A stretch of DNA of 64,000 bases, taken from positions 152,535 through 216,534 of the forward strand of contig WELA01002099.1 in the NCBI GenBank assembly GCA_009602735.1, given 5' to 3'. The stretch's first letter is position 1. Each line of letters begins with the position of its first letter. A model generated the notes under the pieces. The model ran no database searches. It was not told where the DNA came from and worked only from the letters and a program-made list of their open reading frames with translations. The translations under genes were made by a program, and so were the position numbers. Shown one piece after another: positions 4,077-42,800 of this stretch. This DNA is from Mesotaenium endlicherianum. Its lineage: Eukaryota.

Positions 4077-4127
<51 letters not shown>

Positions 4128-6891
4128 CTACACTCGCCCACAGCCATGGGCTGACGACTGGAAGACCGCACATGCACACGCACATGCACACACAGGCCCA
4201 CACACCTACACACATTCGCATGCATCTAGACACCGTGCTGCGTGCGAATTGCTAAGGAGGAACGCGCATGTGAAATAAAGCCTTCACCTGACCGTCAGGG
4301 TCATCCATGTCACAGCTGTCTATTTCTTCAAGAAGTGAGAGAAACCACACGACAAAATTGAACAATCCAGCCGCACACTGACTGCCATGTGAAGCTCAGA
4401 CTTGAAGTGCACACGAGAAGGAGTGTCAGGTGTCAGGAGACGCACCAGCATGCGGTCAATGCCGAAGCCGTCAAAGGTGAGGCCTTGGAAGGAGACCTTC
4501 AGCTTGGAAGTGCCAAACACTCTGACTCCGTACATCGTGAGCGGAGGAGAGGCGCCGGTGAAGCCGATGGTGACGCTAGCGCCGGAGGCCTGGAACCTCA
4601 GGCTCTTCTCGATCTTGACTGTCGACGACACGTTGAACGAGGCGCGCACGACAATGACGTCGTTGGTGGCTGCGGCGGCGATGGCCCTCTTGAGCGTCAA
4701 CGCACTTACAACTGCCAAGAGAGGCAAGAGAAGATTCTTGAGCATTCTCTGAGACGGGCGGGGAAGGATTGACACCATTGGACATCCGCTGGGGACACTT
4801 TTGCATGGCATGGAGTAACTCTCCAGCGCCATTACTGCTAACATCTACACCAAAGTCGCAGGTCTACGTCGCAGCTGCAGCTCACCTGCTCCAAATGCAC
4901 TCATAGATACAGATTGTCAGAGGATGCAAACGACGTGGATCATGCACACACCACCCTCCTACCATAGGGCAGCGCCACACGATGCATACGCGTAGAAGAC
5001 AGCAGCTAATTACTAACTTCAATTCATGCAGCACATGCTGGGAGTACCTCCTGCTGAGCAACGAGGCGTGACAGACATGCCCTCTCGTGAACAAGGGCAA
5101 ATCGTCGCGAGAGAGTGACCTTCACACGCACGGCTCACCAACAAGAGCATTCCAACTGGCATGCTAGGCGGCAAGTCAGAGTGGAGGCGACGGAGAGATT
5201 GCTACCTTTGATTACGCATCGCTTGCCCTGAGCCACGTATCCGCTCTGACAGTAGCACGCGGCCTCCCCGTTGACCACCTCGCAAACCGAGTGGGCGCCG
5301 CATGCCACCCCCGTGCAGGAGCCTGAAGATTGAGAGAGCCACAGGCATTACACAAATGTACACGAGAATATAGATTTACATATATATGTTTTTACATGTA
5401 TCTGTTTTGTACTTCGTTCCTAAAGTAGAGCAGACGAGCTTGAAATCCAGCAAGGCGGTATTAGGTCCTATGTTACATCATAAGTGCAGGCCATGGGGAG
5501 AAGCATGGGGACTGGCGTGCATACCTCCCGCGGCGGTGCTCAGGAGCTGCCGGGAGCGGGGCCTGGCCATGGGCATGCGAGCGACTGGCATCATCTCAGA
5601 ACCCGCTCTGACGACGTCGAAATCCTTCACCTGTATGACCTCAGAGGACGGGGGCCAGTCAGCAGGGGCAGATAGGAGCAGGGAGAAGTGAGGCCGCTTG
5701 CAGTTTTCGAGACCTCGGAAGGTACTTGGAGGAAGGAAGAGTTGCCCTGTAGCACCAAATTAGGCCGGGGAAGAGGTAAAGAACTCATGCTCAGTAGATG
5801 TGAGGATTACGCAAGCCCACTTGCAGCAAGCGCGCGCAGGAGATGCCACGCACACATCCACCCGCCCACCCATCCACACGCACACAAACACAGACATTTT
5901 CACTCACCCGCTTGCGAGCTGCAGGGTCGTTGTCATCGTCGTCGTTCGGAGCTTTCATGCCAGCATCTGTCTCCGGAATCGTCCACCTCCACGGAGCATG
6001 CTCCAGAACGCGTTTAACGACAAAGGCCGCAGCCTGCGCCAGCAGTCCTGCCGCATGACCGAGCCCCTCCCGCTCTTGCTCCTGTTGCTGCTGCTGCTGG
6101 GAGTCAGATGGAGCCATATGCATCTCCTCCTCCTCCTCCTGCTGCTGCTGCTGCAGTCACAGCGTGCAATTTGCCACCGAAAGCGAAAGCTGCTAAGACG
6201 AGAGATCCAGGCTGCTTGTGTCAGGCAACTAGAAAGGCTGACAGCGCCTGATGACAGGCTTTCTGAAGGATGGCAAGTGGCACTTGACCTTTCAAGAATC
6301 AATCAGCTAGCATTATTTTGATTCCGTAGACACCTCGTATGTAGACGCAAATGAGCGTGCAGCTATTCACCAACGAGCATTAGCCATAGCAGACTAATTG
6401 GTTGACTATACCATTACCATGAATTATGATACATGTATATTACACTCCCATATGACAGACCAACGATGTAAAGAATCTAAGAGCATGTACAAGCGGAGTA
6501 TTGACACTCAGCAATTCTGAGTAACACATCCAAAAAGGTGGGAAAATCAGTTGACCAAAGGAGCACATGTGAAACTCCGGAGCATACACTACTCACTTTG
6601 GCATCAAGTGCAGCTTCATAGAAAGGGAAAAGTGAGGAATCCTGCTGATCATGCACGCCACCTTGAGACATGGCACCTCTTCTCCCAGCTGCACAATCAA
6701 AAAGCAAGTGCACAAGATGAGAATGGGACCGAGCGTACATTGGTGCAGTGGAAGTGCAGATAGCGGGTAACAAGTGCTGGAAACGCCACTAATTTTCACA
6801 GGACGTTGAGTCTACCTTCGGAAGATGCGGCCTGTGCGACCAAGGAATTGACTACAATGAGTATCATAAGTCTGCGAATCGCAGTCGCCAT
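1..6891 (-). CDS. Multi-exon host gene, 3' end beyond window start: putative secreted cell-wall glycoprotein with signal peptide, Pmp/pectin-lyase-like beta-helix region and extensin-like polyproline stalk
   Basis: Phase-consistent GT-AG exon chain read by hand: 6891-6816 (MATAIRRLMILIVVNSLVAQAASSE, signal-like), 6688-6597, 6150-5908, 5630-5525 (RQLL), 4711-4402, 4315-4288, 3661-3551, 3039-2950 (GAAL..VRDNFA), 2444-2337 (AAGGAL..FANN), 1907-1148 (Pro-rich), 347-<1 (SPPPP). The donors at 4401 and 2336 are weak, so some boundaries are uncertain. Confidence 0.65.
1300..1550 (-). repeat. Four imperfect coding tandem repeats (PPPQELAPPTAPG) in the Pro-rich exon
   Basis: Core ggggcagttggtggcgcaa recurs at about 1312, 1369, 1447 and 1519 on the + strand. 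Confidence 0.85.
4071..4125. repeat. (CG)n(CA)n microsatellite in a host-gene intron
   Basis: cgcgcgcgcgcg followed by about 18 CA units, inside a CA-rich low-complexity intron (3800-4230). Confidence 0.95.
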
Positions 6892-8429
6892 CCTAAGCTT
6901 GGCATTCGGTAACATCACAATCATCAACATTAAGAAGCATGAATGTGGACAGTGAGAGATGGACGTAAGAAGCCAAGCAATGAAGACGCGAATTCATGAG
7001 CAAAGTGCACTGCACTGAAGTAGTATTTCACTGTGTTTCAAACAATGCTATAGTCGCTGCTACACGCCCGCTGAAGCACTTACTCTGGACTGCTCTACTG
7101 TATATGCGCCCGGAATTGGTCGGACGTTTTCTATTCGCAGGTCCTTATTTGAGTATCCAATCAATTTTTATGAGCCCCCCATCTGGGGTTTGAAATAGTG
7201 CCGGGTCAGGCGGGCCGCGAGTATGACTGGGAGGGAAACCCGGCGAGTTGCGGCGAGGACTTTTGGGGACCTACGCTCCGTTCCTCTGTCGCACCCATCG
7301 TTGAGACTCTGGAGCAGCTAGGCCCTCGGTTTGACATAATTCCTGGATTTCGAAAACATCCTCTGCCCGACGTTTAGGTTTCAAAAAACATCCACCATTT
7401 GTAGTGCATTATATACGGCATAATAACATGCCACTATAGTCCTCAAAGAGATATTTTAGATTTGAAGTATCTTAAGAAACCTTGCCTCTCCGTTTTATGG
7501 GTCCCAGGTTCTTTAGATTCAACAAAACAAATAACACCAGATTTATTGCGAATCGAAAGATCTGTTCTGACCAGTTCTGGAGTCGGAACTGGGAAGCATC
7601 ACGTGCTTAATGACATTCTGAAACGCCCTGAGACTGGCTGAGATGGGCTGAAGCCTGAGATGGGCTGAGATAGGGGGGGACCAGGGGGGACCTTGATTGC
7701 GGTTTTCTTGGTTTGCTTTTCTATGTGGCTTTCTAATGTTCTACAGAAATGCTTCTGACAACTTTGATTGGGCTTGGCGGGCACAGCATGCCAGCCTCCA
7801 GGGTTTGTCCACGAGCGCTTGTCCTACACGGTCAACCAAGGTCGACCCATGCTACTACTTTGGCTCGAAGTTATTGAGCCAAAATATCAGTTTACATTGG
7901 TTTACATTGGTTTACATTCGTTCGCGTTAGTATACATCCATGGACGTTATTCGCCCAAAGAATGTCTTATCGTATGTTTTTGGCCTTTTGTTCCCACACT
8001 TCTTGGTCCCACTTGGTCCTTTCTCTTCAGTCGCCGTTAGGCGTGCGCCTCGAGACCACTCGAGAGACTCGTGACCACTCGTGACACTCAGTTCTCGTCT
8101 ACTTATCCTGCCACCGCCGCTGACCGCCACCAAGCCTACCCTAGGGCACACAAAGCTTGTCAGGCGTGGTCATGAGGGTGTCAGGCGTGGTCAGGATGTT
8201 GTCAGGGTGTTCTACGCGTGGGAATAGCACGAGATGGCGGGTGTTGAGGGTGCGGATCAGTGCGGTTGGATGGGGGGAAAAGGAAAAGAAGGATTGATTC
8301 GATAGAAAATGGAAATGGAATGGATAAAATATAAAATGAATATACAAAGCATGGGGTGGTAACTTGCGCTAATTTTCCAGATTTTATAATTTAGGCCCCT
8401 AAAATATTAAATTCTTCTTCATCCTTCTT

Positions 8430-8570
8430 CTAAGCCTCACGCTGAAGTCGGAGTCGCTCTGATTCCCGAGATAAGATGGAGGACAATTCGATGTCGCCGT
8501 GGAATTCCTTGTACTCCGCCTGTGCCTCGTCCGCTCTTCTTTTCCTCTTGAGTTCCGACTTCTGGGTCAT
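8430..8570 (-). pseudogene. Truncated, diverged ORF3 homologue of A0
   Basis: MTQKSELKRKRRADEA...SILSRESERLRLQREA* aligns by eye with A1 ORF3 TTQKEDRKRKAEEA...SLTRREQERVRKQQEA. Same position after pol, preceded by CACTAAC..AG. Confidence 0.65.
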
Positions 8571-8943
8571 CTTGCTCAAACAAAACACAAATGGAGTTAG
8601 TGAAGTCGTAATGTCGTGCACAATCATTGAGTCCTTGGACAGGTAAGAGCGTAGTAGTGAGAGTTACCGGGTTTGCAATACCCGGTGTAAGTAAGCGGAA
8701 AGTGGAACTGTGCTTGAGAGAGAAGTGCGTGTGAACGCAGTTTAGCGTGGAGAATGGATATCTAAAAGCAATTGGCTGGTTCCCGAGATGTTATCCCACT
8801 CCCTCCAACTTAATGTTTTAAGGTGGGCTGCTTGTCACAACTGTCACTTACTGTCACTAACTGTCACTTTCAAGCAAATTTCCCCTCTAACTTAAATGGA
8901 GATAGGACCTCCTGTCACCTTCCCATGTCAACTGAAATGACAG

Positions 8944-10104
8944 TTAAGGAGGTGTCTCAGTCTCCCGAGGGTAAAAGCGTTTCAACGCCCCTTTGGCATT
9001 GTTCAAATGATCCTTAAATTCCCAGGTGTCCCCAGAGGCATCATAACCCATCCATCTGACCAAATATTTCATGACAAATTTAGATGATCGACGAACAGAG
9101 CGAGCTTCTAAAATCTTGTCTACCTCATAATCCTCAGGGTCACCATCTTGGACAGCGGGGACCGGTCCCGGTTGGACAAGTAACCGATCTGTGAACAGTG
9201 TGTCACCCTTGATGTATGGTTCTAGGAAAGAGACATTAAAGACTAGGTGACCCTTGTATTCCGCTGACATGTTCAGTTTGTAAGCATTCTGACCGACATG
9301 GCGCACCACCAAATATGGACCAACCCAAATTGGGCAAAGCTTTTCCTTGACCACACCAGGCAAGTACAGGTGTCGAGAATGCAATTTGACCAAATCGCCC
9401 TTAGAAAATGTCAGCTCACGACGGTGTTGATTAGCATATTTTTGTTGATTTTCTTGGGCTTTGTGCACGTTCTGTTGGACCTCTGACATGGTGTCAGGAA
9501 ACTCTTGAGTTAACTGGAGAGACACCGGATTGTCAATCCCCTTAGGATGAGTTAAAGACTCCCCTACACATCCAAAGGGGACTTGGGGACTCTACCTAGA
9601 CTGAGTTCAAAAGGAGTCTTTGTCGTTGACGCATGCACCGCACTGTTGATCGCAAATTGAATTTGAGGCAACGGGTCATCCCAATTATTATGTTTTTGGT
9701 TAATATATGCTCTGAGCACCCCTTGCAGTACTCGATTAGTTCTTTCAGTCTGCCCATCAGTCTGAGGGTGGTTTGCTGTGTTGAGCCAGTGTTTGACTCC
9801 CATTAACCCCATTAAAGCTCTCCAGGACTTAGAGGTGAATTTTGAGTCTTCGTCCGAGATAATATTGTAGAGTAGCCCATGTTGGCATACTGCGTAGTTG
9901 TAGAACTGTCTCCCAATTTTGAGTGCAGTCACCTTGGCGGTGGTGGGGATGAAAATGACCATTTTCGTCAGTTTATCCACTACTACCAGGACGGAATTAT
10001 GCCCGTTGGCAGTTTTCGATAGTGTTACCACCCACTCCATGGATATTGTTTTTTATCGTCCAGCTGGGATGGGTAGTGGTTGTAATAGCCCTTCGGATGG
10101 TGTG
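8944..10104 (-). pseudogene. pol: A0 integrase core plus chromodomain, disrupted
   Basis: ORFs 9564-10040 and 8944-9525 ([27 protein letters not shown]) closely match A1 pol, with a premature stop. Confidence 0.9.
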
Positions 10105-10326
10105 TGAAAGGGGGAAGGGTGCGGGGAGTGCGCCCACACACACTCACGCACCCTCACCCGCGAGTGGAAGCGTGCACAAGGACCTTTCCTAGTTGCATAC
10201 ACAAGGTGGAGTGGCCTGGTGGTATGCCACCCTTGCAAGAGTTAGAGGGCTACATGAGAGGAGTGGAAAAGCACTCACTTTATTAAGAAAAGTCGTGTAC
10301 AAGTTAAGACGGTTAGACTAGACTAA

Positions 10327-11043
10327 TGAAATGAATCGACTTACCAAATAGGCGATTAACAATTAATAAAGATCTTTATATCAGCAAGTAATCTTATGGT
10401 ATTTCCGTTAACTAGTCAAACGGCAAAGGACAATACACTAGCAGGGAATAATACTTGTAAGTCAAATGCGAGTAAACTAGCATCAATGATGCAAGTCAGT
10501 AAACTCATACATAAGCAAGGTTAGAAGATAGTGCATATCAATGGCTTCTCGCCTTGGATTCAGAGTTCTCTCAGTAAGCTGTACAAGAGAGTTGGCCTCG
10601 TTTCCGAATGCCAAACTCGAGAGCAATGCCTAGCATATGTACATGGAATGAGTTTACTGTTCAACGGTCAGTGCGATGGCACCGCCTACCCGGGAGTTAA
10701 CCACGTTGGTAGGACCTCGGTTAACCAAATCCACCGCCATCTCCCATCATCCCGAATAGCCATCCATCATGGGGATGTCATCTGGCCATTCATCTAGCAG
10801 GTGGTACTTAGATGCATATCAAGGCAGTTCGCTGCTACCGAGCACGGAAGTCAGCTTGCTGTCAAAGAATGTGTCAGCAAGCTGACTTAAGTTGACTTCA
10901 GCCTGCTGCTTTCGGCCGAGTCATTAAACTGATAATTATGTAAAGTCCAGCAACTGATTATTAACTAAAGTTCAGCAGGCTGAACTTGATTAACTATTAT
11001 ATTTAAATGAATATTATATCCACTAATATACTGATTCATTACA
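10327..11043 (-). repeat. A1 3' LTR
   Basis: 717-bp direct repeat of 18399-19118, adjacent to the PPT. Confidence 0.95.
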
Positions 11044-11156
11044 ATCCCTCCAACTTAACTTGTTGTCGCCTCGACAACATTAAACTGCAGAAATTTTAAA
11101 TAAGGGAACTGAACCTGACCAGCCTCCCTTACTGACTGCCTCTTCAGCGTGTCACC

Positions 11157-12833
11157 TTAAGGGGTTGTTCCTGGGGCTTCAGGGTCAGGAGACGGAGATC
11201 TGGACCTAGATCTGGACAGCCCTCTAGGTCTGTCAGCTGGCCTTCTAAAGAACCCTGTTTGCTCTAAAGTTGGCCCTCGAGGAGAACGGAGGATGGTGGC
11301 CTGCTCTTCAACCACTTGGGTGTTGATTCCCACATAGACAGGCATTCCAGTAGGATGCTGAAATACATTGGCTAGAGGTACATGCCCCTGAGCGGAGGGG
11401 GAGGCTGGCATACCTCTGGCCCACCCGCGTGTCCCTCTTCTGGCACCCCTGTCCTCTGGGGATTTCTGTCTGTGTCTGCTGCCCAGTACCGTCAGATCAG
11501 CTTCTTCCCCTGCTTGGGCAGGTGGGCTGGGGGAGCGAGCGCGGGGTCCAGTTGTCGCCATAACGGGGATCACATTCCACAAACCTGATCGTGGTTCTTT
11601 AAGAAGTGCCACTGCCTGTCCCTGGGTATCCTGAGTACCCGCTGCTGATGCTTCTCCTTTGCCTTGTTCTCCTTCCTCATCCTCCTCATCCTCCTCTTCG
11701 GAAAGAGTAGGGGTCTCGTCCACGAAGTCGTCCTGCTCCCTAGTAGACATGGAGTAGTCTACCGACCTCCCTTTCTTAGGGCGCGCTGGAGGTTGCTTGG
11801 CCTTCAGCCTACTGATATCTATCCGGCCTGCATTCTTTGCCCATTTGACAAAGGCATGCTTTCCCTTAGAGAAGTACTCTCTTCCCCTCCTCCTATGTTC
11901 CTTGGTCTCTGCATTCATATTGCTCAGGCATCCATTCAGCCTGGGGTCCCAAGGGGCAATGTGAGGTGGTAGGATGAGATAGCCGTCTAGGCCATAGTGG
12001 AAGTCATCCGGTTGGGCTCGGTCACACTCCTGCTTCTTATTTGTGACGGTCATCCACCTCCAGTCTGTTGGCTGCTGGTAGTACTGGGGTCCGTGCTCAG
12101 CCTTCCTCAGTTTACACGGGAACCAGTGGGGAGAGAACATCTGCTGTCCTGCTTCCCTGGCCAAGTACTCCCAGCTCCTTCTTTCAACTTCATTGTAAGC
12201 TGACAGGAGTGTGAGGTAGAATACCGTATCCTTAAAGCTATCGGGCCGCATGCTCACCATCCGGATGAGTCTCTGATCTCCCACTATTCCCGGTATGGGG
12301 ACCGGCTTGTCTTCTGAATCATCTGCGAGATACCGGGCCTGCTCTGCTGTATAGCCCACCATCTTAGCATAATCTTCGTAAAGGACCACGCCGGTGTGTG
12401 TCTCGATGTACCTGTCCAGTGCTGTAGCTCCTTCCTTCTGTAGCAGTGTTGTCTGTTCCAGCCTGTTGATCTCCTGGGCTGCCAGCAATGCTTCCTTCAG
12501 GTTATCGAAGTTTTGGCCACCCACCACAGTATACCTGTAAGTGGCCAAGCTCTTCTGTCTGTCCGCTTCAATCTTTTTTCTTTTCTCCTCTTCTGCCGCT
12601 GCCGCTTCTTCTTGCTGTTTCTTCTGTCTCTCCTCCTCAGCCTTCCTGAGGTTTTCCGCTTCCTGATCCTTCTTCCTCTGTGCCTCTTCTGCCGCCTCTT
12701 GTTGTTTGCGGACCCTTTCTTGTTCTCTCCTGGTGAGGGACGTCGCCGCCAGCTCCTTCTGGTATTGCTCCATTGTCCTCCTGGCTTCTTCTGCCTTGCG
12801 CTTTCTGTCCTCCTTTTGTGTGGTGGGCGCCAT
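11157..12833 (-). CDS. Accessory ORF3 of A1 (558 aa from ATG 12833), function unknown: basic NLS-like/coiled-coil N-terminus, aromatic-rich core, acidic tract, RS/SP-rich tail
   Basis: Uninterrupted frame between the pol stop and the PPT. Homologous frames at 40645-41890 and 8430-8570. Confidence 0.85.
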   Translation of the reverse strand: MAPTTQKEDRKRKAEEARRTMEQYQKELAATSLTRREQERVRKQQEAAEEAQRKKDQEAENLRKAEEERQKKQQEEAAAAEEEKRKKIEADRQKSLATYRYTVVGGQNFDNLKEALLAAQEINRLEQTTLLQKEGATALDRYIETHTGVVLYEDYAKMVGYTAEQARYLADDSEDKPVPIPGIVGDQRLIRMVSMRPDSFKDTVFYLTLLSAYNEVERRSWEYLAREAGQQMFSPHWFPCKLRKAEHGPQYYQQPTDWRWMTVTNKKQECDRAQPDDFHYGLDGYLILPPHIAPWDPRLNGCLSNMNAETKEHRRRGREYFSKGKHAFVKWAKNAGRIDISRLKAKQPPARPKKGRSVDYSMSTREQDDFVDETPTLSEEEDEEDEEGEQGKGEASAAGTQDTQGQAVALLKEPRSGLWNVIPVMATTGPRARSPSPPAQAGEEADLTVLGSRHRQKSPEDRGARRGTRGWARGMPASPSAQGHVPLANVFQHPTGMPVYVGINTQVVEEQATILRSPRGPTLEQTGFFRRPADRPRGLSRSRSRSPSPDPEAPGTTP

Positions 12834-13100
12834 CCTGCACATGTAACCAGGGCACAAGTTAGTAGGATATGGACCTTTGTCATAGGGATTGCAGGAAGTA
12901 TGTTAGTATTTAGTATAGTGGCTTCGCTGCTGTTTACCTTACAGGATGATTGCTAAAAGTTGACGTAGTTGCGATGCGCTACACATAAACGTATGAGTGT
13001 GTTTTTATCGCTCTCGCTCACTAACTGTCATATATTTTCCCCTCCAACTTAAATGGAGACAGGACCGCCTGTCACCTTCCCGTGTCAACTGAAATGACAG

Positions 13101-16100
13101 TTATGGAGGGACTCCAGCGGCCCGAAGGTGGAACCGTGTCAACGCCCCTTTGGCATTGGTCAAGTGGTCCTTAAACTCCCAAGTGTCCCCAGAGGCATCG
13201 TAACCCTTCCATCGAATGAGGTATTTCATGACATATTTAGACGATCGACGGACCGAGCGAGCGTCTAAAATCTCATCGACCTCATATTCCTCAGGGTCGC
13301 CGTCCCGGACAGCGGGGACCGGTCCCGGTTGGACAGGGAACCGACCTGTGAACAGTGTATCACCTTTGATGTACGGTTCCAGGAAGGAGACATTAAAGAC
13401 CGGGTGCCCCTTGTATTCAGCTGACATGTTCAGTTTGTAAGCATTCTGACCGACACGACGGACCACCGAATATGGACCGACCCAGACAGGGCCAAGCTTT
13501 TTCTTGACCACACCAGGGAGGTACAGGTGCTGAGAATGCAGTTTGACTAAATCCCCCTTGGAAAATGTCAGTTCCCGACGGTGTTGATTAGCGTATTTTT
13601 GTTGGTTTTCTTGGGCCGTGTGCAAGTTTCGTTGGACTTCTGACAGGGTGTCAGCAAACTCCTGAGTTAACTGGAGGGAGACCGGGTTGTCAATCCCTTC
13701 AGGGTGAGTTAAAGATTCCCCTAGCACATCTAGAGGAGACTTAGGGACTCTACCCAGGCTGAGTTCAAAAGGAGTTTTGCCCGTTGACGCGTGCACCGCA
13801 CTGTTGACCGCAAACTGAATTTGAGGCAACAGGTCATCCCAATTATCTTGTTTTTGGTTAATATATGCTCTCAGCACCTCCTGCAGAACTCGGTTAGTTC
13901 TTTCAGTCTGCCCATCAGTCTGAGGGTGGTTTGCTGTGCTGAGCAGCTGTTTGACTCCCATTAACCCCATTAAAGCTCTCCAGAACTTAGAGGTGAATTT
14001 TGAGTCTCTGTCTGAGATGATATTAGAAGGGAGCCCATGTTGGCATACTACATGGTTGTAAAACTGTCTCGCTGTTTCGAGTGCAGTCACTTTGACAGTT
14101 GTGGGGATAAAAATGACCATTTTTGTCAGTTTATCCACGACTACCAGTATTGAATCATGCCCGTTGGCAGTTCTTGGTAGTGAGACCACCCAGTCCATGG
14201 ATATAGTTTCCCAGCGTCCCGCTGGGATGGGTAGCGGTTGCAAGAGACCTCCGGGTGGTGTGTGCCGAGACTTATTTCTCTGACACTGGTCACAGGACTT
14301 GACATATTTCAAGACCTCCCGGGGTAACCCCTCCCAATGATAATGTTTTGCCAGTTTGCCAACAGTTTTGGCCTGCCCCAAATGTCCACCCAGGAGACTG
14401 TCATGAGCTTGACTCAGTAAGAGAGACCTTATTTCCAAGTTATTAGGAATGACCAGCTTCAGCCTGCCTGAAGTGGTTTCAGTCACCCAGACCCCTCCCT
14501 TGAGCTTATACCCGAGTGCAGTAGCACGACACACACCAGTAGTGGGGCTGGGCTCAAATGTTGGGTCAGAAAGGTAGGCTTTCCTAAGTTGTTCAAGGAA
14601 GGACTTTTTCACCTTTAGTGAAGTGAGTGCACACAGGACTTTATCTACAGCATGCTGACTAAAGTTCCTTTCTTGCAAGTCAGGTCTTCTAGAGAGTGCA
14701 TCAGCAGGATTCAACTTCCCTGGTTTGTAGTCGATCTGGACTTGGAACTGCTCCAGCATCTGGCTCCAGCGGTTCTCCCTCCTCGACAGCTTGGACTTCT
14801 TCTGAAAGTGGGTCAGAGCTAGATGATCTGTAATCACCTTAAAAGCTTTACCATGTAAGTATGCTCTCCACTGTTTGAGTACATGAATGATAGCTAGCAG
14901 CTCTTTATCATGCACTGAGTAATTAATCTCCGCTGGATTAAATTTCATAGACTCATACAACACAGGATGCCACTCCTGCCGTACCTTACCATCCTTTGTG
15001 GTTTTGTCAGCAGGCTGCAACAAAATAGCACCCATGGCAAAATCAGAGGCATCAGTAACCACCTGCACCGGTTTGCTGGGGTCATACACGGCTAGCACTG
15101 GGGCAGAACAAAGGGCATCTTTAAGGGTCTGGAAGGCAGCCTGCTGCTCTTCCCCCCACACATACCCGATGTCTTTCTTAGTAAGGTCAGTCAGTTTACT
15201 GGCCTTTGTGGAATAATTCTCAATAAATCTCCTATAGTAGTTAGCCAACCCGAGGAAGGATCTAACTTCAGAGACAGACTGTGGTACTGGCCAGTCCCTT
15301 ATGGTCTGGACTTTCTTAGGATCCACACTGATGCCCTCTTTACTGACAACGTGGCCTAAGAATTCAATACTTTCCTTAAAGAAATCACACTTGCTCATTT
15401 TAGCATACAAGTGATTTTTCCGCAGAGTGTCCAGCACTTTCTTTAAGTGTTCAGTGTGCTGAGCTTCATCTTTAGAGAAAATTAAAATATCATCCAGGAA
15501 AACTTGCACAAACTTATCCAAATAAGGTCTGAAAATGTCATTCATAGCACCCATAAAGGTAGCAGGAGCATTAGTCAGTCCAAATGGCATCACGTTGAAC
15601 TCATAGTGTCCATAACGTGTGCGGAAAGCAGTCTTGTGTTCATCCCCCTCAGCAATTCTGATTTGATGATAACCACTCTTGAGATCTATCTTACTGAACA
15701 CCTTAGCGCCAGACAGGGTATCAAGCAAGTCCTCGATTCTGGGTAAAGCATACTTGTTCTTTACTGTAATTCTGTTCAGGGCTCTGTAATCCACACACAT
15801 CCGCATACTGCCATCCTTTTTCTTAACAAATAGGATAGGTGCGCCGTACGGTGATTTACTGGGAGAAATGTAACCATTTTCCTCCAGCTCTGCAATCTGT
15901 GTTTTCAACTCCTCGCTCTCCAAATAAGACAAGCCATAAGTGCGTTGCCAGGGTGGCTGGCTACCAGGTAATAGATCAATCCTATGATCTACTTCCCTTT
16001 TAGGGGGTAGTCCTGGAGGCATGTTAAACACATCAGTGTACTGAGCAACAATTTTTGCAGCAGTAGGGTGCTCCGGAGGGCTTACCTTTTTCTCAACCAC

Positions 16101-16910
16101 TTCTTCAGGTTGAGGAGGTACCTCTCTTAGCAGCAGACAGAACATTCTGTCTTCCTTCTGGTTCCAGCTTTTGACGAACTCCATTGCATTCAGCAACTTG
16201 CATCCTTCTGGAAGCCTCTTCTTTTCCTTCATTTGCCATCCACACAGGACAAGAGGAAGAGCACTGGTGGGTGCCAAGTCAGTCTGCCCATCACTGGCTC
16301 CTCTCACTTTAACTGTACCTCTGCTCCAACACACTTCAGCTTGATGTCTATTAAGCCAGGACCTGCCTAGCACGAGATCATAAAAGCCAGTGTTGAGTAC
16401 CTCAAATGTAAGCGTTTCAGTTAGAACTGCAATGCCAGAACCTAACTGGACCTCAATAGGCTTGGTTATAACTCCTCCCGGGATACTTGAGGCATCTCCA
16501 AGGAATATTTTTCTATTCCCTTGGGTGACAGTAGGCAGCCTTAGCCGCTTAACTAAGTCCTTGTGAATAAAAGTATGTGACGCCCCTCCGTCAACAAATG
16601 CCCTCACCTTCCTACCTGCAATCATGCAATGCAGTAGGATAGGGGGGACTGTCTTTTCCTGACTTTCGCATTGTTCTCCTGACGTAGCAAAGAAATGTTG
16701 GACATCAGGTGGAACAAGAGCATCCAGAGTGTGCACTCTCTGGACGTCTATATTACTGATGGTCTCCTTTATCTGTTTGTCAGGCATGCATAGTGAATCC
16801 AGTTCAGCAGGACCCATAATACCTGCTACGAGGGCAGCTAGTGACGACTCACTATCTCTAGCATCCTCATAGTCAGTAGTCTGGATTACTGACTGTTGCT
16901 GTCTTTTAAA
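13101..16910 (-). CDS. pol: A1 Pol polyprotein (protease, RT, RNase H, integrase, chromodomain), probably expressed by -1 frameshift
   Basis: [75 protein letters not shown] order indicates Ty3/Gypsy. Confidence 0.97.
16858..16910 (-). promoter_or_regulatory. Putative -1 programmed ribosomal frameshift signal
   Basis: U UUA AAA heptamer in the gag frame (16910-16904), a 9-nt spacer, then the stem AGTCAGTA/TACTGACT. pol is in the -1 frame. Confidence 0.75.
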
Positions 16911-18364
16911 GGCTGGTCTTTTCTCTCGACCTTAGGCAGGTGCCTGACCGGACACTGTTCTCTGTAGTGGCCTTTCTGCTGACAATGGTAGCAAGTAGAT
17001 TTTGCTGAGGCTGGTCTCGGCTTAGTCCTACCACCACCCCTTCCATAGCCACCTCGAGAGGGACCACCTCTACCTCTAGACTGAATAGCATTGTACTCAT
17101 ACTCATATTCATCACCCTGATTATCCTCAGCCTGGTCTCCTTCAACTGCATTGTAGGAACCGTGGGGCTTTTTGACAATCTTAGACACCAAAGCGTTACT
17201 CTGGCGCTTGTGATTGAACTGCTGCTGATCCCAGGCGTCAGCATCCTGGATCAAGTCAGCCAGTTTCTCATACTTTTTCTCAGCAAAATGACCAGAGACC
17301 TCGGATTTCAAGCCATACCTGAAGTATGCTATCCTATACCGTTCTGGCAAATCAGGCTGCTTCATCATGTTCTCTTGGAACTTTTGAGCAAACTCAGCAA
17401 CTGAAGTGGTCTGCTTCAGTGTCAGGGAGATCATCGCATAGATAGCTTTCTCCTGCTGGTTGATGACATCAAACTTCTCATGCAACTTCTCGACAAACTC
17501 TACCCACGTAGGGTCACCGAGTTGCCGAGCCTTACGCTCTTCCTTCCAGTAAAGCCACCAGTCTGCGGCACTGCCTTTCAGTAGCGCACCGGTGTGCCTG
17601 ACCTTCTCGTAATCTTGCAGTTCTGGGTAGTTCTCCAGCCACTGCTCAACATCCGCGAGAAACTTGATCAGGTAATATTTTCTGTTTCCCTCAGGATCAT
17701 AGTCCTGGGGAGGTTTCGGCTTGGGCTTACTAGGCCCTCGGCCACCACCACTAGTGGTGTGAGACCCCAGTTGGTCTCTGTCCCGGAGTAGGGACATTAT
17801 GATTCTTTTGTCCTCCTGCTGGGACTGATACATGGTCGCCATTTGCGACTGCATCTGAACGAACAATGCTCCCAAGTCTACATTTTGGGGTGGTAGATTA
17901 GCAAATGCAGCAGCAGCATTGGCATCTACTCGCTGAGTAGTGTCCTCAACAATCCCTCTTGCTCCTGCAGCAGCAATTCCTGCCGCATTCAGCCGGTCAC
18001 GTATTTGACCTAGGGGTACATTGAGTTGTACGGCAGGAGGTGGGTTCAGAACATTGGCCCTTGATGCCATAAGTTCTTCAACAGTGCGCTCGTCAGCTGG
18101 CTGTCCTTCCCTCCTTTGTATATCTTCAGCGGCCTTTGCTACTTGTTCAGCTTCTAGTCTGGCTATCTCCTCCTCAGCTTGCTGAGCTGCGACTGAGGCA
18201 ATAGCAGCTGCCTCATCTGCAGCCTCCCTAGCTGCAGTATCCGCTACTGCTTCCGAATAGGTACGGTTTCCCGCTACATGGCTTTCCGCCTGGTTTTCGA
18301 CATTCTCGTTATCCTGGTTCTCCATGTCTCGGGAGTTGCTAGTTTGAGACCTTGTCCTTACCAT
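16886..18364 (-). CDS. gag: A1 Gag (492 aa) with RGG tract and CCHC zinc knuckle
   Basis: Starts just after the [41 protein letters not shown]. Confidence 0.95.
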
Positions 18365-18398
18365 ACAAAGAAGACTGTGATAACTGCTCCGATACCAC

Positions 18399-19118
18399 TG
18401 AAATGAATCGACTTACCAAATAGGCGATTAACAATTAATAAAGATCTTTATATCAGCAAGTAATCTTTATGGTATTTTCCGTTAACTGGTTAAACGGCAA
18501 AGGACAACACACTAGCAGTGAATAATACTCGTAAGTCAAATGCGAGTAAACTAGCATCAATAATGCAAATCAGTAAACTCATACATAAGCAAGGTTAGAA
18601 GACAGTGCGTATCAATGGCTTCTTGCCTTGGATTCAGGATTCTCTCAGTAAGCTGTACAAGAGAGTTGGCCTCGTTTCCGAATGCCGAACTCGAGAGCAA
18701 TGCCTAGCATATGTACATGGAATGAGTTTATTGTTCAACGGTCAGTGCGATGGCACCGCCTACCCGGGAGTTAACCACGTTGGTAGGACCTCGGTTAACC
18801 AAATCCACCGCCATCTCCCATCATCCCGAATAGCCATTCATCATGGGGATGTCATCTGGCCATTCATTTAGCAGGTCGTCCTTAGATGCATATCACGGCA
18901 GTTCGCTGCTACCGAGCACGGAAGTCAGCTGGCTGTCAAAGAATGTGTCAGCAAGCTGACTTAAGTTGACTTCAGCCTGCTGCTTTCGGCCGAGTCATTA
19001 AACTGATAATTATGTAAAGTCCAGCAGACTGATTATTAACTAAAGTTCAGCAGGCTGAACTTGATTAACAATTATATTTAAATGAATATTATATCCACTA
19101 ATATACTGATTCATTACA
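18399..19118 (-). repeat. A1 5' LTR
   Basis: 720 bp, followed by the PBS on the - strand. Confidence 0.95.
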
Positions 19119-22100
19119 ACTAACTAGACTAGACTCCCTCTACTTCTTTGTGCTTCCCATTTATGCTTTAACTCTAAGTGTCCTCTTTAGCAAAGTACCT
19201 CCAGAACCTTCTACTATGGCTCCTTCCAATGTAGGTGACCTTGCCTAGTTGGACAAGCTAGCACACTCACACGCACGCTATCACACACTAGAATATTCCA
19301 CTACACAATCCACTAACTCTTCACGAACTTTCTAGAAATTCCACGATCACTTTGGCACTCTACGTAGTTTTTGGAACCCTCGTGTTTCAATGTCCTACTT
19401 TGTGGACTCCAACCGAAATTTCCGTCACTGAACCTGTCCTTGTCACTAATTTGAATCTGTGACACTAAAAACTCACTAAAAATTCTCAAAATTCATAACT
19501 TTCTCAATACTTGTCCAAATGACTTGAAATGAAGGCCAAAGTTCTTCTAAAATCACACTCTATGCATTTAAAATATTAGAAAGATACAAACTACAATTCA
19601 ATAACCTTACATCATCCCCCTCCTCAAGATGCGACGTCCTCGGCGCATACTAAGCATAAGTGACGTCATATGAGGAATCGAGCTCACATATACGCTACAT
19701 AACACACATACACATTTATTATACAAGTTGCAGGTCTTGAACAGGCTCCAGGATGATACTCATTACTCCAAACTTGCTCCACTTAGTGAAAGCTCTATCG
19801 CATACATTGGCTCCACACATGGCGTCTCCTTACACAAGTGCATTTTCTCTTCAACTCCTTCGTCTTGGAATAGGCCAATATCTTCATAAGGGCTGTAACA
19901 TACTCCCTCCATCATCTCCACATACTCCAAAGCTGGATCCAAGGCATAATAGTCCGCCAAATCGCCAAAATACTCATTCTTCGCCCTCTTGGACAAGTGG
20001 CAACTCCTCGTCGCGCCATGTGGCTTACTCGTGGTGCTCTTATAATAGACTACATCATGAACCTAAGTCCACTATGTTCCTGAACCTTCTAGTACCCTTA
20101 GCTACCTCTAGCTCTAAGCCATACTCCTTGTAGAGGTATTGCACTCTCTCAGTCGTGTGCGTGACTCGTGGTGACCTCTCAAGACGCCAAGTGGCACCCC
20201 CCTGACTTTTTCTGACATTTTTAGCCTCAAAGTTGTGCAATCTACATAGTATCACCCCTCTGAACTCACTGGTATGCTCGGTTTCCCCTGATTTTAAGTC
20301 TAAGACCATAAAACCAGATTACGCCTTGCCTCACACATGTGGCTCCCACGGCAGTCCAGCAGACCGCCATGTGGCACTGTCAGAACTTAATTTAAATATT
20401 TTCATAAAATAAATTTATTTTTCTAAATCTGAACCCATAGGACTACCTCTCCACAAAATTTCAGAATCTGAATCAAAGTCTAACACTCAAACGAGATCGT
20501 CACTTTGTGCCTCACGCTCGTAGGACGTACACGCGCGCAACACGTATCAAGCTCCCGCGCCTACAAATGGCACATGCTTAAACCCCTAACTTTGAAACTT
20601 GACTCTGACTCAGGGCAGGCCTCATACTAGGCCTCTCACATCATGTAGGACTTCTAGTGAAGATATTATCCACTCATTTCTAAGTAGGCAAAAAGTAGCC
20701 AAAAGCTGCCAACTTTAATCCTCGCGCTCGCCTACCCATAAAACCCTCAAACATGGACAGATTTGAGTATCCACTATAAACAACTATAACACTCTCCCCC
20801 CTCATCATGAAGGTAAGGCGCTTACCACTCGAGTGTCCAAGTGCATATTTTACGCCTCTCTCGTGCTTGCTTGTATAGGCGCTGATTCTCCTAGCTTCAT
20901 GCACTGGTCTTTGTCATGTATCTCCATCTTAGGCAGGACATATCAGCCCCATAACACTTGGTCTCCTCCTCATAGGTCCATATCCATAAAGTCGTAGTCT
21001 CCATCAAGCGACGATAGTAACCTTCACAAGGCATGAGCGCGTAGTCTCGCTCGTGGTGCACCAAACTCCATCATAGTCTTCTTCTTGGCTAGATGCTCAC
21101 TCCCACATACTTCTGGCTCTTCTTGAAGGTCAACCTTTACACAAGGCTCCAAGAAACACATCTGGAACGCCTCCAAGAGCTCCATAACTTGGGCATACGC
21201 ACATACTCTTAGTGCTTGCACCTCATCTTGTGCACGCACACACGTCGTCTTGCAAGCGGGCTTCTCTTGAGCTCACTTTCTAGGAGCTCCTCCACTTGAG
21301 CAGTTGGGGTCTGCTCTATATATGAGCAAGGGGATCATACACCTCTACTTGCTCCACCGGCGATGCGCGCTCGCCAAGGTTGTTAGGAGGCACGCTTGCT
21401 CCATGCGATTTCCGGGCCAAGGTCACCAAAACAAGTGCTTCTCCTTCACCTTCACCTTCCCGCGTCGCTTCTTTGCTAGCGGGCTGAAGATAGCTACTTG
21501 TGGTCTTATCTATCTCCACCTATTTCACTATCTTCACTTGACCATACTCCTCCTTGGTCTTCACTTGACCCGTGCACTAAAGCACTAGAGGATAGGCTAC
21601 TCTCTTTGTGCAACTCCTTCCACATGCTTAGCTTCTTGAGTGCACTCTAGCCTTGGTCACCCCAATGACACTTCTTACTACTAAACCCAGCTTGCCTTGG
21701 TGCTCTACTTTCACATGAAGAGCTTCCATAGATGCACCAAAATTTGCCCCTTAACTATGCCAACACACAACTATTGGCACACGCACTTCAAGTGGGAGAC
21801 ATCTCTTGCACTAGCCCTCTTGCACCACCTTCATACCTTGCTTCTTCTTCCACACCATAGGCTTGTCTTCATCATAGTTCTCAACTTCATATACTCTGTA
21901 GTACTCTCCTCCATAGAAAAGAGAAATCTGAACTTGAAAGGCTCCATCTCCATCTCTACTCTTTGAAGAAAACATCTGCGTCACTTCTTCTTGCTCCAAG
22001 CCTCCCCCACGGCGCTTTTCTTCACTTGAGGCTTCATCAATCTCCATAAGAATGACCAAGCTCCATCATGGCTGGCCAACAATACCCAGTGGCTATGTAG

Positions 22101-23823
22101 GAGTGATGCAAGGCAACCCAAATCTGGCCACATACTTGGCCAACTTGGTGCAACGCCCCGGTGCACCCTCTCTTGAGCTTCTCATGAGCTCCTCTTGAGC
22201 TTGCGAGTGCTATGCTCGCCAAAGCTCCTAGACTTGCAAGTACACATGCTTGCTAAGTCCTTGGTTGCCTACCCTTAAAACCTGCTCCACCTTCATTGAA
22301 GATCTGAAATAAAGATGGGCACACACTCCTTTCTAGCCACTATCACCTCTATGCTAAGCCCCCCCTCAAAGAAAGTGCTTAATACTAAAGAGCTTGCATC
22401 TTCAAAGAAACATCCAGTCGTGTGAACTCCAGATTTTCTTCATGCTCATATGTCTCCATACTCGAGCAAAGGCTGCTCTATGTTACTTATGTCACTACCA
22501 TGCTTGGGTAACCTTCTTATACTGTAAAGATGACATACAAAAATCTGGTTGCATCCAAGTTAACACTTCTTGGAGCACCTCCCACTTCCCATCTCCTCCC
22601 TCTTTCAAGAGAGGGAGATGCTAGCTTGCATCAACGTCTTCATGGCTGCCCTTAGCAACTTATAAATCATCCTTGCTTCTCCTCTCTACCCTCTCTACAT
22701 TCCTACAAGCATCACCAACCAAAGCTCCTTCCTCCAAATGAAGCAACTAGGTAGCTCTGATACCATGTGAAAGGGGGAAGGGTGCGGGGAGTGCGCCCAC
22801 ACACACTCACGCACCCTCACCCGCGAGTGGAAGCGTGCACGAGGACCTTTCCTAGTTGCATGCACAAGGTGGAGTGGCCTCGTGGTATGCCACCCTTGCA
22901 AGAGTTAGAGGGCTACATGAGAGAGGAGTGGAAAAGAACTCATTTTATTAAGAAAAGTCGTGTATAACTTAAGAAGGTTAGACTAGACTAACTAGACTAG
23001 ACTCCCTCTATGTAGTGATTTGAGTTATTATATATTAGTTTGCATCAATAACTGAACCAGACACAGGCTGCGTGTATGAGGCATCTTCCCAGATCCTCTC
23101 AAAGACATATGTTCATTATATCTCCTCAAACTCTTCACCTAGTGATGAAATACGAATACGAAGTATTAGTATAATAAATACATATTAGAGTTATACGTGT
23201 ATGATAAAAATACGAGCGTATTTCAATTTCCCAAGATTTTTAGTATAGAGAAAAAGCTTCATAACTTCCACATAACTTCAAAATGTAGTGATTTGAGTTA
23301 TTATATATTAATTTGCATATATTTTAATGTTTTCAAATATATTTGGAGTAGTATTGTGTGGATTCAAGTGTGAATAGGTACTCTAGTGACTTGGTTCATG
23401 TCCTTTGAACCTTCTAAGGCATTTTCGAAGTTAGAGGAAAGACCTAGAAGAACTCCACGTGGCAAAACTTAAATGTGCCATTTTTAGGTCAAAAGGACAT
23501 GTGTACATTATTCTAGAAAGAGGTGGCAAGTTTTGGGATGTGTTGGGTGCCAGCACATCAACATACACCTTCCTAGAAATTACTTATGTAGCAAGTATAT
23601 AAACAAGAGCTAGAACATAGAAAGACATTCAAGAATCACTCTTGTACTTGCCAAAATCCAGAAATATATTAACTTTCAAGAAGCCATCTCTCTTTCAAGA
23701 AGCTACCACTTGTGTTCAAAGATCCTTGTCTTGAATAGATAAAGTATTATATTTTACTAAGTACTTTATCTATCTGTTTCACTACAGTGGTATCGGAGCT
23801 AGGCACTTTGGTAGCACAAGAAG

Positions 23824-39839: not shown

Positions 39840-42800
39840 TGAAATAAATCGACTTACCAAATAGGCGATTAACAATTAATAAAGATCTTTATATCAGCAA
39901 TTAATCTTTATGGATTTTCCGTTAATTGATTAAACGGCAAGAGGACAACACACTAGCAGTGAACAACAATTGTAAATCAAATGCAAGTAAACTAGCATCA
40001 ACAATGCAATCAGTAAACTCATGCATAAGCAAGGTTAGAAGACAGTGCGTATCAATGGCTTCTCGCCTTGGATTCAGATCTCTCTCAGTAAGCTGTACAA
40101 GAGAGTTGGCGTCGTTTCCGAATGCCGAACTCGAGAGCAATCCTTAGCATATGTACATGGAATGAGTTTACTGTTCAACGGTCAGTGCGATGGCACCGCC
40201 TACCCGGGAGTTAACCACATTGGTAGGACCTCGGTTAACCAAATCCACCGCCATCTCCCATCATCCCGAATCGCCATCCATCATAGGGATGTCATCTGGC
40301 CATTCATCTAGCATACCACACTTAGATGCATATCGAGGCAGTTCGCTGCTACCGAGTACGGAAGTCAGCTGGCTCTCAAAGAATGTGTCAGCAAGCTGAC
40401 TTAAGTTGACTTCAGCCTGCTACTTCCGGCCGAGTCATTAAACTGATATTAAATATGAAGTCCAGCAGACTGATTATTAACTAGAGTTCAGCAGGCTGAA
40501 CTTAATTAACTATTATATTTAAATGAATATTATATCAACTAATATACTGATTCATTACAATCCCTCCAACTTATCATGTTGTCGCCTCGACAACACTATC
40601 ACTAATAACAGCGTGCTGTCCCTTTTGTCCCCATCCTACTGCCATTAGGAGGGAGATGTCCCTGAGGCTCTATACTCAGGGGAGCCAAATCTCCTCCTGT
40701 CTTGGGGTCTTCTGAAGCCTGTCAGCGAGGGAGGTTCCGTGTAAGGACCCGGCGGAGAACGCAGTAACTGGGCTGTTTCCTCCTGCACAGTCTGAAACTG
40801 AAGGGAGGCAGCCTCCTCTTGGGCAGCCCTCAAACTGACAGGTACGTAAACCGGCATCCCAGAAGGATGTTGCATGACATGAGCCAAGGGTACATGCCCT
40901 CTCTGCGAGGGAGATGCTGGCAGGCCTCTGGCTATCTCCCGAGCAGCCCTCCTGTCTGCCCTGTCTGACTGGGTCACCTTGCCTGGAGATGGGGTCTGTC
41001 TTCTGGCAGTCCCCAGCCAAGTGATATCCTCCTCTTCAGCGAGCTGCTGCAGGGCCGACTCAGTCTTCTCCCTTACAGGGGATGTGGCAGGCGTCAGGAT
41101 CACGGCGGGGCTAGTGTCCTCCTCCTCGCCTTCCTCCTCGTCTTCCTCTGACTCCTCCTCCTCGCCGTCCCCGGGTTCCTCTGAGACTTCTGGGGTCTCC
41201 TCTGTCAGCTGCTCCAGCTCTTCCCGAAAAAAAGAATATCCTACTGACCTTCCTCTTTTGGGTGCTGGTGGGGGCTGCTGAGTCCGGACCGCATAGAGGT
41301 CCTTTTCCCCCTGCTTACTTGCCCATTTGGCATAAGTGTGCTTCCCTTTGGAGAACGAGTCTCGGGCCTTGCTCCTGTCCCCCTGCATTTCTTGGCTCAT
41401 GCAGTCTCTGACTCCATCCAATCTTGGGTCCCAAGCCGCAATGTGAGGGGGCAATACTATGTTCCCCTTTAGGTCTGTCAGGAAATCCTCATCCGTCGCC
41501 TTGTCATTCTGCTGGTCCCTCATGTTGATGGTCATCCACCGCCAATCAGTGGGCTTTTGGAAGAAGGCAGGGTCTGTCCTTTTAAGAGTACAAGGGTACC
41601 AGTGCCCTGCAAAGTCCAGCTGACTGGTTTCCCTGGCCAAGAATTCCCAGCTCCTTCTCTCCACCTCATTATACAGGGCCTTGAACCTGTTATGGGGTGT
41701 TGAGTCCTTGAAGCTGTCCGCGTCCATGGGGATCATCCTGATGACCCTATCTTCCCCCAAGATACCAGGAATCGAGACAGCCCCTGCTTCGTTCACCTGA
41801 GCCATTGCCTTGGCCTCTCTGACCGTATATCCTACCATCCTGGCGCAATCGTGGTAGAGGAGGAGCCCCGTGCTGACCTCTATATACTTGTCCTCAGCCT
41901 GGTCTCCTTTAATTGCATTGTAGGAACCGTGGGGCTTTTTGACAATCTTAGACACCAAAGCATTACGCTGGCGCTTGTGATTGAACTGCTGCTGATCCCA
42001 GGCATAAGGATCCTGGATCAAGTCAGCCAATTTCTCGTACTTCTTCTCAGCGAAATGACTAGAGACTTCGGATTTCAAGCCATACCTGAAGTATGCTATC
42101 CTATACCGTTCTGGCAAGTCTTGCTGCTTCATCATGTTCTCCTGGAACTTTTGAGCAAACTCAGCAACTGAAGTCGTCTGCTTCAGTGTCAGGGAGATCA
42201 TCGCGTAGATAGCTTTCTCCTGCTAGTTGATGACATCAAATTTCTCATGCAACTTATCGACAAACTCTGCCCACGTAGGGTCACCGAGTTGCCGAGCCTT
42301 ACGCGCTCCTTTCCAGTGAAGCCACCAGTCTGCGGCACTGCCTTTCAATAGCGCACCGGTGTGCCTGACCTTCTCGTAATCTTGCAGTTCTGGGTAGTTC
42401 TCCAGCCACTGCTCAACATCCGCGAGAAACTTGATCAGGTAATATTTTCTGTTTCCCTCAGGATCATATTCCTGGGGAGGTTTCGGCTTGGGCTTACTAG
42501 GCCCTCGGCCACCACCACCAGTGGTGTGAGACCCCAGTTGGTCTCTGTCCCGCAGTAGGGACATTATGATTCTTTTGTCCTCCTGCTGGGACTGATACAT
42601 GGTCGCCATTTGCGACTGCATCTGAACAAACAATGCTCCCAAGTCTACACTCTTGGGTGGTAGTCTAGCAAATGCAGCAGTAGCATTGGCATCTACTCGC
42701 TGAGTAGTGTCCTCAACTGTCCCTCTCGCTCCTGCAGCAGCAATTCCTGCCGCATTCAGCCGGTCACGTATTTGACCTAGGGGTACATTGAGTTGTACAG

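What the first reader, a model, noticed from the sequence alone, without database searches (positions are those of the whole stretch)
12831..18417. Splice signals suggesting a dedicated mRNA for ORF3
Seen (- strand): TACTAAC (12864-12858), then TTGTGCCCTGGTTACATGTGCAG|G-ATG places an acceptor 1 nt before the ORF3 ATG. A second TACTAAC lies at 12908-12902. The diverged A0 copy independently has CACTAAC (8602-8596), a T-rich tract and AG|ATG. Candidate donors are a consensus G|GTAAGT in U5 of the LTR (18416, present in all full A LTRs), which would excise gag-pol as in env splicing, or local GTAAGG/GTAAAC (12942/12937; GTAACT at 8667 in A0), giving a ~100-nt 5'UTR intron from an internal promoter. 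Inference: regulated subgenomic expression.
Basis: partly seen in the sequence, partly recalled or inferred. Interest (0 to 1): 0.7.

Follow-up and report, generated by a model that had tools for sequence, protein, structure and literature searches.

The report
Retrotransposon orphan gene with leader intron
A jumping gene carries an extra gene of unknown function that likely gets its own messenger RNA by removing a short intron just in front of its start codon (seen once in RNA of a sister copy, not yet in this copy), rather than by the long retrovirus-style splice from the element's end repeat.

Summary
All cited motifs are present. The branch point + CAG directly before the ORF3 start is beyond chance (1 of 2241 ATGs). 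The element is a Ty3/gypsy chromovirus with a 558-aa sense extra ORF, an orphan under purifying selection and without a transmembrane segment, so not Env. One contig (depth 4.3) of a run shown to be RNA removes 110 nt (8681-8572) in an A0-type copy and lands at the predicted acceptor. That supports the short local leader intron, with a donor 14 nt upstream of the one proposed. The equivalent A1 intron is 12937-12835 (103 nt). The two introns share position, size and branch point but not their interior sequence. No junction into 12834 was seen: raw-read depth there was about 0-2, 16 joints were hidden, and one RNA contig runs through unspliced. The LTR donor has no support and is one of 13 equally good donors upstream. 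An internal promoter is inferred, not shown. Side finds: a second RNA contig shows an antisense GT-AG intron (12762-13062), and ORF3 cassettes are far more diverged than the elements that carry them. New variant of a known kind.

The parts
18399..19118 (-). 5' LTR of element A1 (TG...CA, 5-bp target-site duplication TTAGT)
   Evidence: 97% identical to the 3' LTR
18411..18417 (-).
   Evidence: no junction
18386..18397 (-). Primer-binding site (TGGTATCGGAGC; tRNA-Met type, recalled)
16886..18364 (-). gag (Ty3 capsid, zinc knuckle)
13101..16931 (-). pol open frame: protease, RT, RNase H, integrase, chromodomain
13038..13050 (-). Duplicate of the polypurine tract right after pol; read on the + strand it is the pyrimidine tract of the antisense acceptor
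12938..13037 (-). Spacer: inferred internal promoter and first exon of the ORF3 mRNA; a CTTTTAG at 12959-12953 could be an upstream acceptor
   Evidence: inference
12835..12937 (-). Predicted 103-nt leader intron (AAG|GTAAAC ... TACTAAC ... TGCAG|G); holds upstream ATGs 12883 and 12842
   Evidence: by positional equivalence to the A0-type junction
12858..12864 (-). Branch point TACTAAC, 24 nt before the acceptor
12902..12908 (-). Second TACTAAC; one X1 contig lacks a base at 12909
11157..12833 (-). ORF3, 558 aa, orphan; charged N-terminus, conserved core (about aa 142-367), low-complexity tail; no transmembrane segment
11045..11056 (-). True polypurine tract before the 3' LTR
10327..11043 (-). 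3' LTR of A1
12762..13062 (+). Antisense intron candidate, 301 nt (CTG|GTATTG ... CACTAAC ... pyrimidine tract ... CAG|G)
   Evidence: one X6 contig, 28 letters on the short side; signals
8572..8681 (-). 110-nt stretch removed in an RNA contig of an A0-type copy; begins GTATTG, holds CACTAAC 8602-8596 and an upstream ATG at 8627
   Evidence: table 5c (X5, depth 4.28)
8409..8570 (-). Broken A0 ORF3 5' end: 46 codons, an in-frame stop, a few more homologous codons, then unrelated DNA
40645..41886 (-). ORF3 paralog in element A2 (49% aa identity), joined to a truncated gag by an internal deletion; its 5' signals are lost

Best explanation
This chromovirus carries an orphan third gene behind pol that is likely expressed from its own mRNA, in which a short (103-110 nt) GT-AG intron just before the start codon is removed (seen in one RNA contig of a sister copy, inferred for this copy) and which likely starts at a promoter in the pol-ORF3 spacer. 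Shown: the ORF, the splice signals and their rarity, purifying selection on ORF3, and one spliced contig for the A0 type. Inferred: that A1 splices 12938 to 12834, that transcription starts in the spacer, and that splicing serves to remove upstream ATGs (12883 out of frame and 12842 in A1; 8627 in A0) so that the ORF3 ATG is the first good start. The full-length RNA stays unspliced there, which is why the intron is kept in the DNA copies. ORF3 is most likely a soluble, possibly nuclear accessory protein (no hydrophobic segment, basic clusters at aa 10 and 84), not an envelope.
For:: run X5 is RNA (4 host introns spliced at GT-AG ends; zero depth at 7310-8212), and one of its contigs joins 8571 to 8687 with five letters between that stand in place of 8686-8682 (3 of 5 the same) and end in CAG, so the skip begins at the GT at 8681 and ends within one base of the predicted acceptor, leaving G-ATG as in A1; signal set unique among 2241 ATGs; intron interiors do not align (598 of 1000 shuffles score as well) while the ORF starts do (1 of 1000), yet size, branch point and acceptor position match, as expected if the signals are selected. 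AAG|GTAAAC matches 7 of 9 consensus letters, against 6, 6, 7, 6 for the RNA-confirmed host donors. A1 vs A2 ORF3 core dN 0.40 with synonymous sites saturated; 4 of the 5 displayed run variants inside ORF3 are synonymous. TGACA motifs are dense in both spacers (24.5 and 26.6 per kb, window 3.1), though three lie in a stretch shared by descent.
Against: No junction into 12834 in either lay. (joint table complete, 2 rows) had depth 0, 0 and about 2 at 12676-12946 in the three raw RNA runs. One search showed 15 joints and hid 16. In RNA run X6 a contig of depth 24.5 runs unbroken across 12733-13048, i.e. unspliced. The supporting junction is one contig at depth 4.28 whose intron ends cannot be seen; the window's A0 has AA where that junction needs AG, and its donor scores 5 of 9. 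No transcript start was mapped. None of the 4 confirmed host introns uses TACTAAC, so the host does not need that motif.
Confidence: 0.57

Rival explanations
1. Two-step splicing from the LTR promoter: a long intron from the U5 donor (18416) or the donor right after the first gag ATG (18361) lands on an upstream acceptor in the spacer (CTTTTAG at 12953 in A1, 8762 in A0), and the short intron is removed next.
For: Both spacers hold one CTTTTAG upstream of the local donor; spliced subgenomic RNA is the known route for Athila, Bagy-2 and Tor3a. The X5 junction says nothing about the 5' end.
Against: No such junction displayed; four or more pyrimidines + AG occur about 4.9 times per kb in gag-pol; the A1 middle exon would be only 15 nt; neither site passed the CTRAY branch test (A1).
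Confidence: 0.15
2. Direct env-style splice from the LTR donor 18416 to 12834.
For: Consensus G|GTAAGT in 6 of 6 LTRs; strong acceptor.
Against: One of 13 sites with at least 7 of 9 consensus letters among 357 GT sites upstream, and 16085 is better; found in 122 of 5000 LTR shuffles; the only junction seen uses a local donor; the leader would carry at least 3 and up to 17 upstream ATGs (gag shares this burden). Sense reads over U5 were nearly absent in X10 and X16, so the test was weak.
Confidence: 0.07
3. The short intron is removed from long, pol-containing or read-through RNAs (or is a relic of a captured host gene's leader), and no dedicated ORF3 promoter exists.
For: ORF3 depth in X6 (about 60) is far below pol depth (about 600), and no start site was seen.
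Against: Routine splicing of genomic RNA would yield intron-less DNA copies; both window copies and the X1, X2 contigs keep the intron. ORF3 is under selection and needs a translatable message.
Confidence: 0.11
4. The motifs are chance and the X5 junction is a DNA deletion or an assembly artefact.
For: Single low-depth contig; exon-end and intron-end CAG give microhomology; A2 shows that this family suffers deletions.
Against: The junction falls within one base of a site predicted without RNA data and starts at a GT (GT is 6% of spacer positions); signal set 1 of 2241 ATGs.
Confidence: 0.1

Closest known systems
Oikopleura Tor3b/Tor4b LTR elements, env from an internal promoter (PMC4402516, passages read)
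   Same: Third ORF behind pol expressed from a start in pol or in the spacer after pol, independent of the LTR; sister group Tor3a uses an LTR-initiated splice.
   Different: Tor env is a transmembrane glycoprotein and its internal-promoter RNA lacked evidence of splicing; here the ORF is soluble, an orphan, and has a leader intron. Our internal start is inferred, theirs was mapped.
Athila ORF2 / barley Bagy-2 env-like subgenomic RNA (PMC7197481 passages; PMC7264820 parts 1-2 of 3)
   Same: Plant Ty3/gypsy elements with a sense ORF between pol and the 3' LTR, expressed from a spliced RNA.
   Different: Non-chromovirus lineage; splice described as from the full-length RNA; some carry transmembrane domains. 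Here a chromovirus, a short local intron, no transmembrane segment.
Maize Grande gene23 (as reviewed in PMC7264820)
   Same: Accessory gene in the pol-LTR region with its own promoter; nuclear protein of unknown function.
   Different: gene23 is antisense and in a non-chromovirus lineage; ORF3 is sense.
Extra ORFs of plant LTR retrotransposons in general (PMC6317226 passages; sunflower Tekay 5' aORF, PMC11728184 passages; rotifer ORF3s, PMC5408684 passages)
   Same: Extra ORFs are common (3372 Ty3/gypsy elements in that survey), highly divergent, mostly without known domains.
   Different: The passages seen give no leader intron for a 3' sense ORF of a chromovirus; the Tekay ORFs are 5' of gag.

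Membership tests
Ty3/gypsy chromovirus | gag, then protease-RT-RNase H-integrase order | tested here: met
Ty3/gypsy chromovirus | Chromodomain at the integrase C-terminus | tested here: met
   PF00385, E 2e-08; residues printed
Ty3/gypsy chromovirus | Paired LTRs, target-site duplication, primer-binding site, polypurine tract | tested here: met
Ty3/gypsy chromovirus | Placement in a named clade (Chlamyvir, Tcn1, Galadriel, Reina, Tekay, CRM) by RT tree | not tested
   No tree built; best full-coverage pol hits 55% identical
env-class elements (errantivirus, Athila, Bagy-2 type) | Sense ORF between pol and the 3' LTR | tested here: met
env-class elements (errantivirus, Athila, Bagy-2 type) | Transmembrane or signal segment in the third ORF | tested here: not met
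   Highest 19-residue hydropathy 0.73 (A1) and 0.85 (A2); no N-glycosylation sequon
env-class elements (errantivirus, Athila, Bagy-2 type) | mRNA made by a long splice from LTR-initiated RNA | tested here: inconclusive
   No junction displayed, coverage low, rows hidden
Internal-promoter third gene (Tor3b/4b, Grande gene23 type) | Capped 5' end inside pol or the pol-ORF spacer | not testable with these tools
   Contigs show no starts; raw reads too sparse
Internal-promoter third gene (Tor3b/4b, Grande gene23 type) | Extra ORF kept across copies under purifying selection | tested here: met
Spliceosomal GT-AG leader intron | Exact removal in RNA at GT...AG with a branch point | tested here: inconclusive
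   Met in one contig for the A0 type; not seen for A1

The most novel reading that the evidence does not exclude
The family carries interchangeable orphan-gene cassettes, each a self-contained transcription unit between two copies of the polypurine tract (possibly a relic LTR as promoter, a leader intron, ORF3), and the first tract copy doubles as the pyrimidine tract of an antisense intron, so one 300-nt switch region makes either the accessory-protein mRNA or a spliced antisense RNA against integrase.
Probability: 0.18. Interest if true: 0.72.

Novelty: new variant of a known kind. Interest (0 to 1): 0.46.

Why it matters
How extra ORFs behind pol are expressed is open for most plant and algal LTR retrotransposons; reviews call for checking spliced and antisense transcripts (PMC7264820). 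A short leader intron with an internal start would be a third route beside LTR splicing and unspliced internal promoters, and it gives exact primers to test. The protein is a conserved orphan whose cassette diverges far faster than, or is exchanged between, nearly identical elements, a pattern that would fit conflict with host silencing (inference).

Tried and rejected
No whole genome is held, so only 3 ORF3 copies, 2 with 5' signals, could be compared. No listed holder of the ORF3 stretch was on record as RNA. X2 has no depth on the host gene and flat depth on the element, so X2 and, by shared study, X1 were treated as DNA-like; their unspliced contigs say nothing on splicing. ORF3 relatives: none at E<=0.001 among 7992 candidates, none among 6083 longer ones, none in viral or metagenome contigs, one hit among 1.84 billion representatives rejected as a repeat-summed match to an unrelated repetitive protein, no Atlas hit at 0.9, PDB best E 0.077, Pfam only a sub-threshold low-complexity match. 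The fold model (mean pLDDT 37.9) was too poor for a fold search. No Rfam match. The donor after the gag ATG (18361) spliced straight to 12834 would put that ATG out of frame with ORF3 and was set aside. The A2 gag-ORF3 join is a deletion with microhomology, not a splice product. The 9.7x sense peak of X17 at 12427-12727 lies on low-complexity sequence at a loose likeness setting and was not counted. Two key papers (Steinbauerova 2011; Vicient 2001) are not held. Paper searches showed no chromovirus 3' ORF with a leader intron in the listings and passages seen; supplements were not opened, and those of PMC6317226 may list such elements.

Full report
Setting. The window is a nest of LTR retrotransposons beside a multi-intron host gene. 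The finding lies in element A1 (- strand): 5' LTR 19118-18399, primer-binding site, gag, pol with protease, RT, RNase H, integrase and chromodomain, then ORF3 (12833-11157, 558 aa), polypurine tract and 3' LTR; the LTRs are 97% identical with a 5-bp target-site duplication. It is a Ty3/gypsy chromovirus. The best full-coverage pol relatives are 55% identical. The primer site and the aromatic residues of the chromodomain point to an alga or non-seed plant, by the statement in PMC6317226 (passages) that the aromatic cage is limited to these; this is inference, and no genome is held.

Observation. A TACTAAC 18-40 nt before a YAG that ends 0-3 nt before an ATG is met by 1 of 2241 ATGs in the window, the ORF3 start; a loose branch motif gives 11 of 2241; shuffles of the spacer give 1 and 70 of 20000. 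A0 itself fails that strict test because its acceptor reads AAG. The LTR donor is ordinary: 122 of 5000 LTR shuffles hold GGTAAGT, and 13 of 357 GT sites upstream of the acceptor match the consensus as well or better. Its presence in 6 of 6 LTRs follows from 88-98% identity.

ORF3 is a real gene. A paralog in element A2 is 49% identical and the A0 fragment 43%. Over 224 core codons dN is 0.40 while synonymous sites are saturated; gag of the same two elements has dS 0.12. So the ORF3 cassettes are much older or faster than their carriers, which suggests exchange (inference). Four of the five run variants displayed inside ORF3 are synonymous (938 rows of that table were hidden). It has no hydrophobic segment and no relative in any search; the fold model was unusable. 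It fails the test for an envelope protein.

RNA evidence. laid three raw RNA runs (6, 13 and 24% of each read) and contig set X1 on 11050-19150: no junction into 12834, but depth at 12676-12946 was 0, 0 and about 2. laid X5, X6, X2 (contigs) and X17 (raw) on 4300-13300, including the host gene. X5, X6 and X17 are RNA: four host introns are removed at GT-AG ends. X2 has no host-gene depth and is treated as DNA-like. One X5 contig (depth 4.28) joins 8571 to 8687 with five letters between, which stand for 8686-8682 and end in CAG on the element's strand. The skipped part is 8681-8572, 110 nt, begins with GT, holds the CACTAAC, and the next exon begins G-ATG, the same layout as A1's CAG|G-ATG. The transcribed copy is not A0 itself: it differs at two of those five letters, and A0's AG sits one base later. 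Against: it is one contig; the intron ends of that copy are unseen; 16 joints were hidden; and an X6 contig of depth 24.5 crosses A1's donors and acceptor unspliced, which may be genomic or antisense RNA or may mean that A1 splices rarely.

Equivalence in A1. The matching intron is 12937-12835 (103 nt, AAG|GTAAAC, 7 of 9 consensus letters; host donors 6, 6, 7, 6; the 12942 site 6). The two intron interiors do not align better than shuffles (598 of 1000), nor do the upstream exons (685 of 1000), whereas the ORF starts do (1 of 1000). Same size, branch point and acceptor in otherwise unalignable DNA is what selection on splicing predicts. Splicing removes upstream ATGs in both types.

Mechanism. 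Shown: gene, signals, one spliced contig of a sister type. Inferred: splicing in A1; a start site in the spacer, since ribosomes would not reach ORF3 on the gag-pol RNA and the spacer is rich in TGACA repeats right after a duplicate polypurine tract; unspliced full-length RNA for replication. I put this at 0.57. A two-step splice from the LTR through an upstream CTTTTAG fits the same junction (0.15); the direct LTR splice 0.07; no dedicated promoter 0.11; chance or deletion 0.10.

Antisense side. One X6 contig skips 12762-13062 with GT-AG ends on the + strand (28 letters on the short side, below the tool's caution line of 30). The acceptor has CACTAAC, a pyrimidine tract that is the duplicate polypurine tract read backwards, and CAG; A0 keeps the same layout with TAG. 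In the stranded runs X10, X16 and X17, reads over the integrase 3' end are mostly antisense, judged by the host gene's orientation in X17, though these come from more diverged copies. No + strand frame over 78 codons lies there beyond 13063, so it would be non-coding.

Known cases. Spliced env-like RNA in Athila and Bagy-2 (PMC7197481 passages; PMC7264820 parts 1-2 of 3), internal env promoters in Oikopleura Tor3b/4b (PMC4402516 passages), Grande gene23 (through the review), and thousands of divergent extra ORFs (PMC6317226 passages). Also read in passages: PMC5408684, PMC9289625, PMC11728184, PMC11963269, PMC13547354. In seven searches I saw no chromovirus 3' ORF with a short leader intron, but two key papers were not held and supplements were not opened. 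It works like an internal-promoter third gene with a cellular-style leader intron; it is a chromovirus, not an env-class element.

Verdict. Observation confirmed, interpretation partly supported: local intron favoured, LTR donor not. New variant of a known kind; interest 0.46.

Noticed in passing
window 12762-13062 (+): Antisense GT-AG intron shown by one X6 contig; acceptor signals kept in A0 (about 8846-8905, +); antisense reads over the integrase 3' end in three stranded runs.
   Followed up: partly
window 13050, 11056, 8893, 8811, 40572 (-): The polypurine tract occurs twice in A1 and twice in the A0 spacer, bracketing the ORF3 cassette; runs show further spacer variants diverging at 13039 and 3' ends of A2 type at 11079-11083. 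The spacer may be a relic LTR start.
   Followed up: partly
window 39840-43886 (-): Element A2 lacks pol: a deletion joins truncated gag in frame to a 49%-identical ORF3 paralog; gag has a stop at about 42223; LTRs 98% identical.
   Followed up: partly
window 16911-16904 (-): T TTA AAA at the gag end, with pol open in another frame from 16931: looks like a -1 frameshift site (motif recalled).
   Followed up: no
window 11413 (-): 18 X13 reads leave the element after GAG|GTA into other sequence: possibly a cryptic donor inside ORF3 used by one copy.
   Followed up: no
   Followed up: partly
window 10103-10326; 19123-22991; 31907-36119: A second family with 224-bp LTRs and no long ORF; A1 is inserted in its LTR. 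This LTR has very high depth in RNA runs (summed contig depth about 63,600 in X6; 295 sense in X17).
   Followed up: no
window about 300-7100 (-): Expressed multi-exon host gene with a proline-rich tail; four introns confirmed by RNA (4712-5205, 5323-5524, 5631-5907, 6689-6815); paralogs also map.
   Followed up: partly
window 18640-19118 (-): Sense reads cover the LTR down to about 18640 and stop, suggesting the polyadenylation site; reads over U5 are mostly antisense (X10, X16).
   Followed up: no
window 24524-25407: Assembly gap of 884 N inside another element's pol.
   Followed up: no
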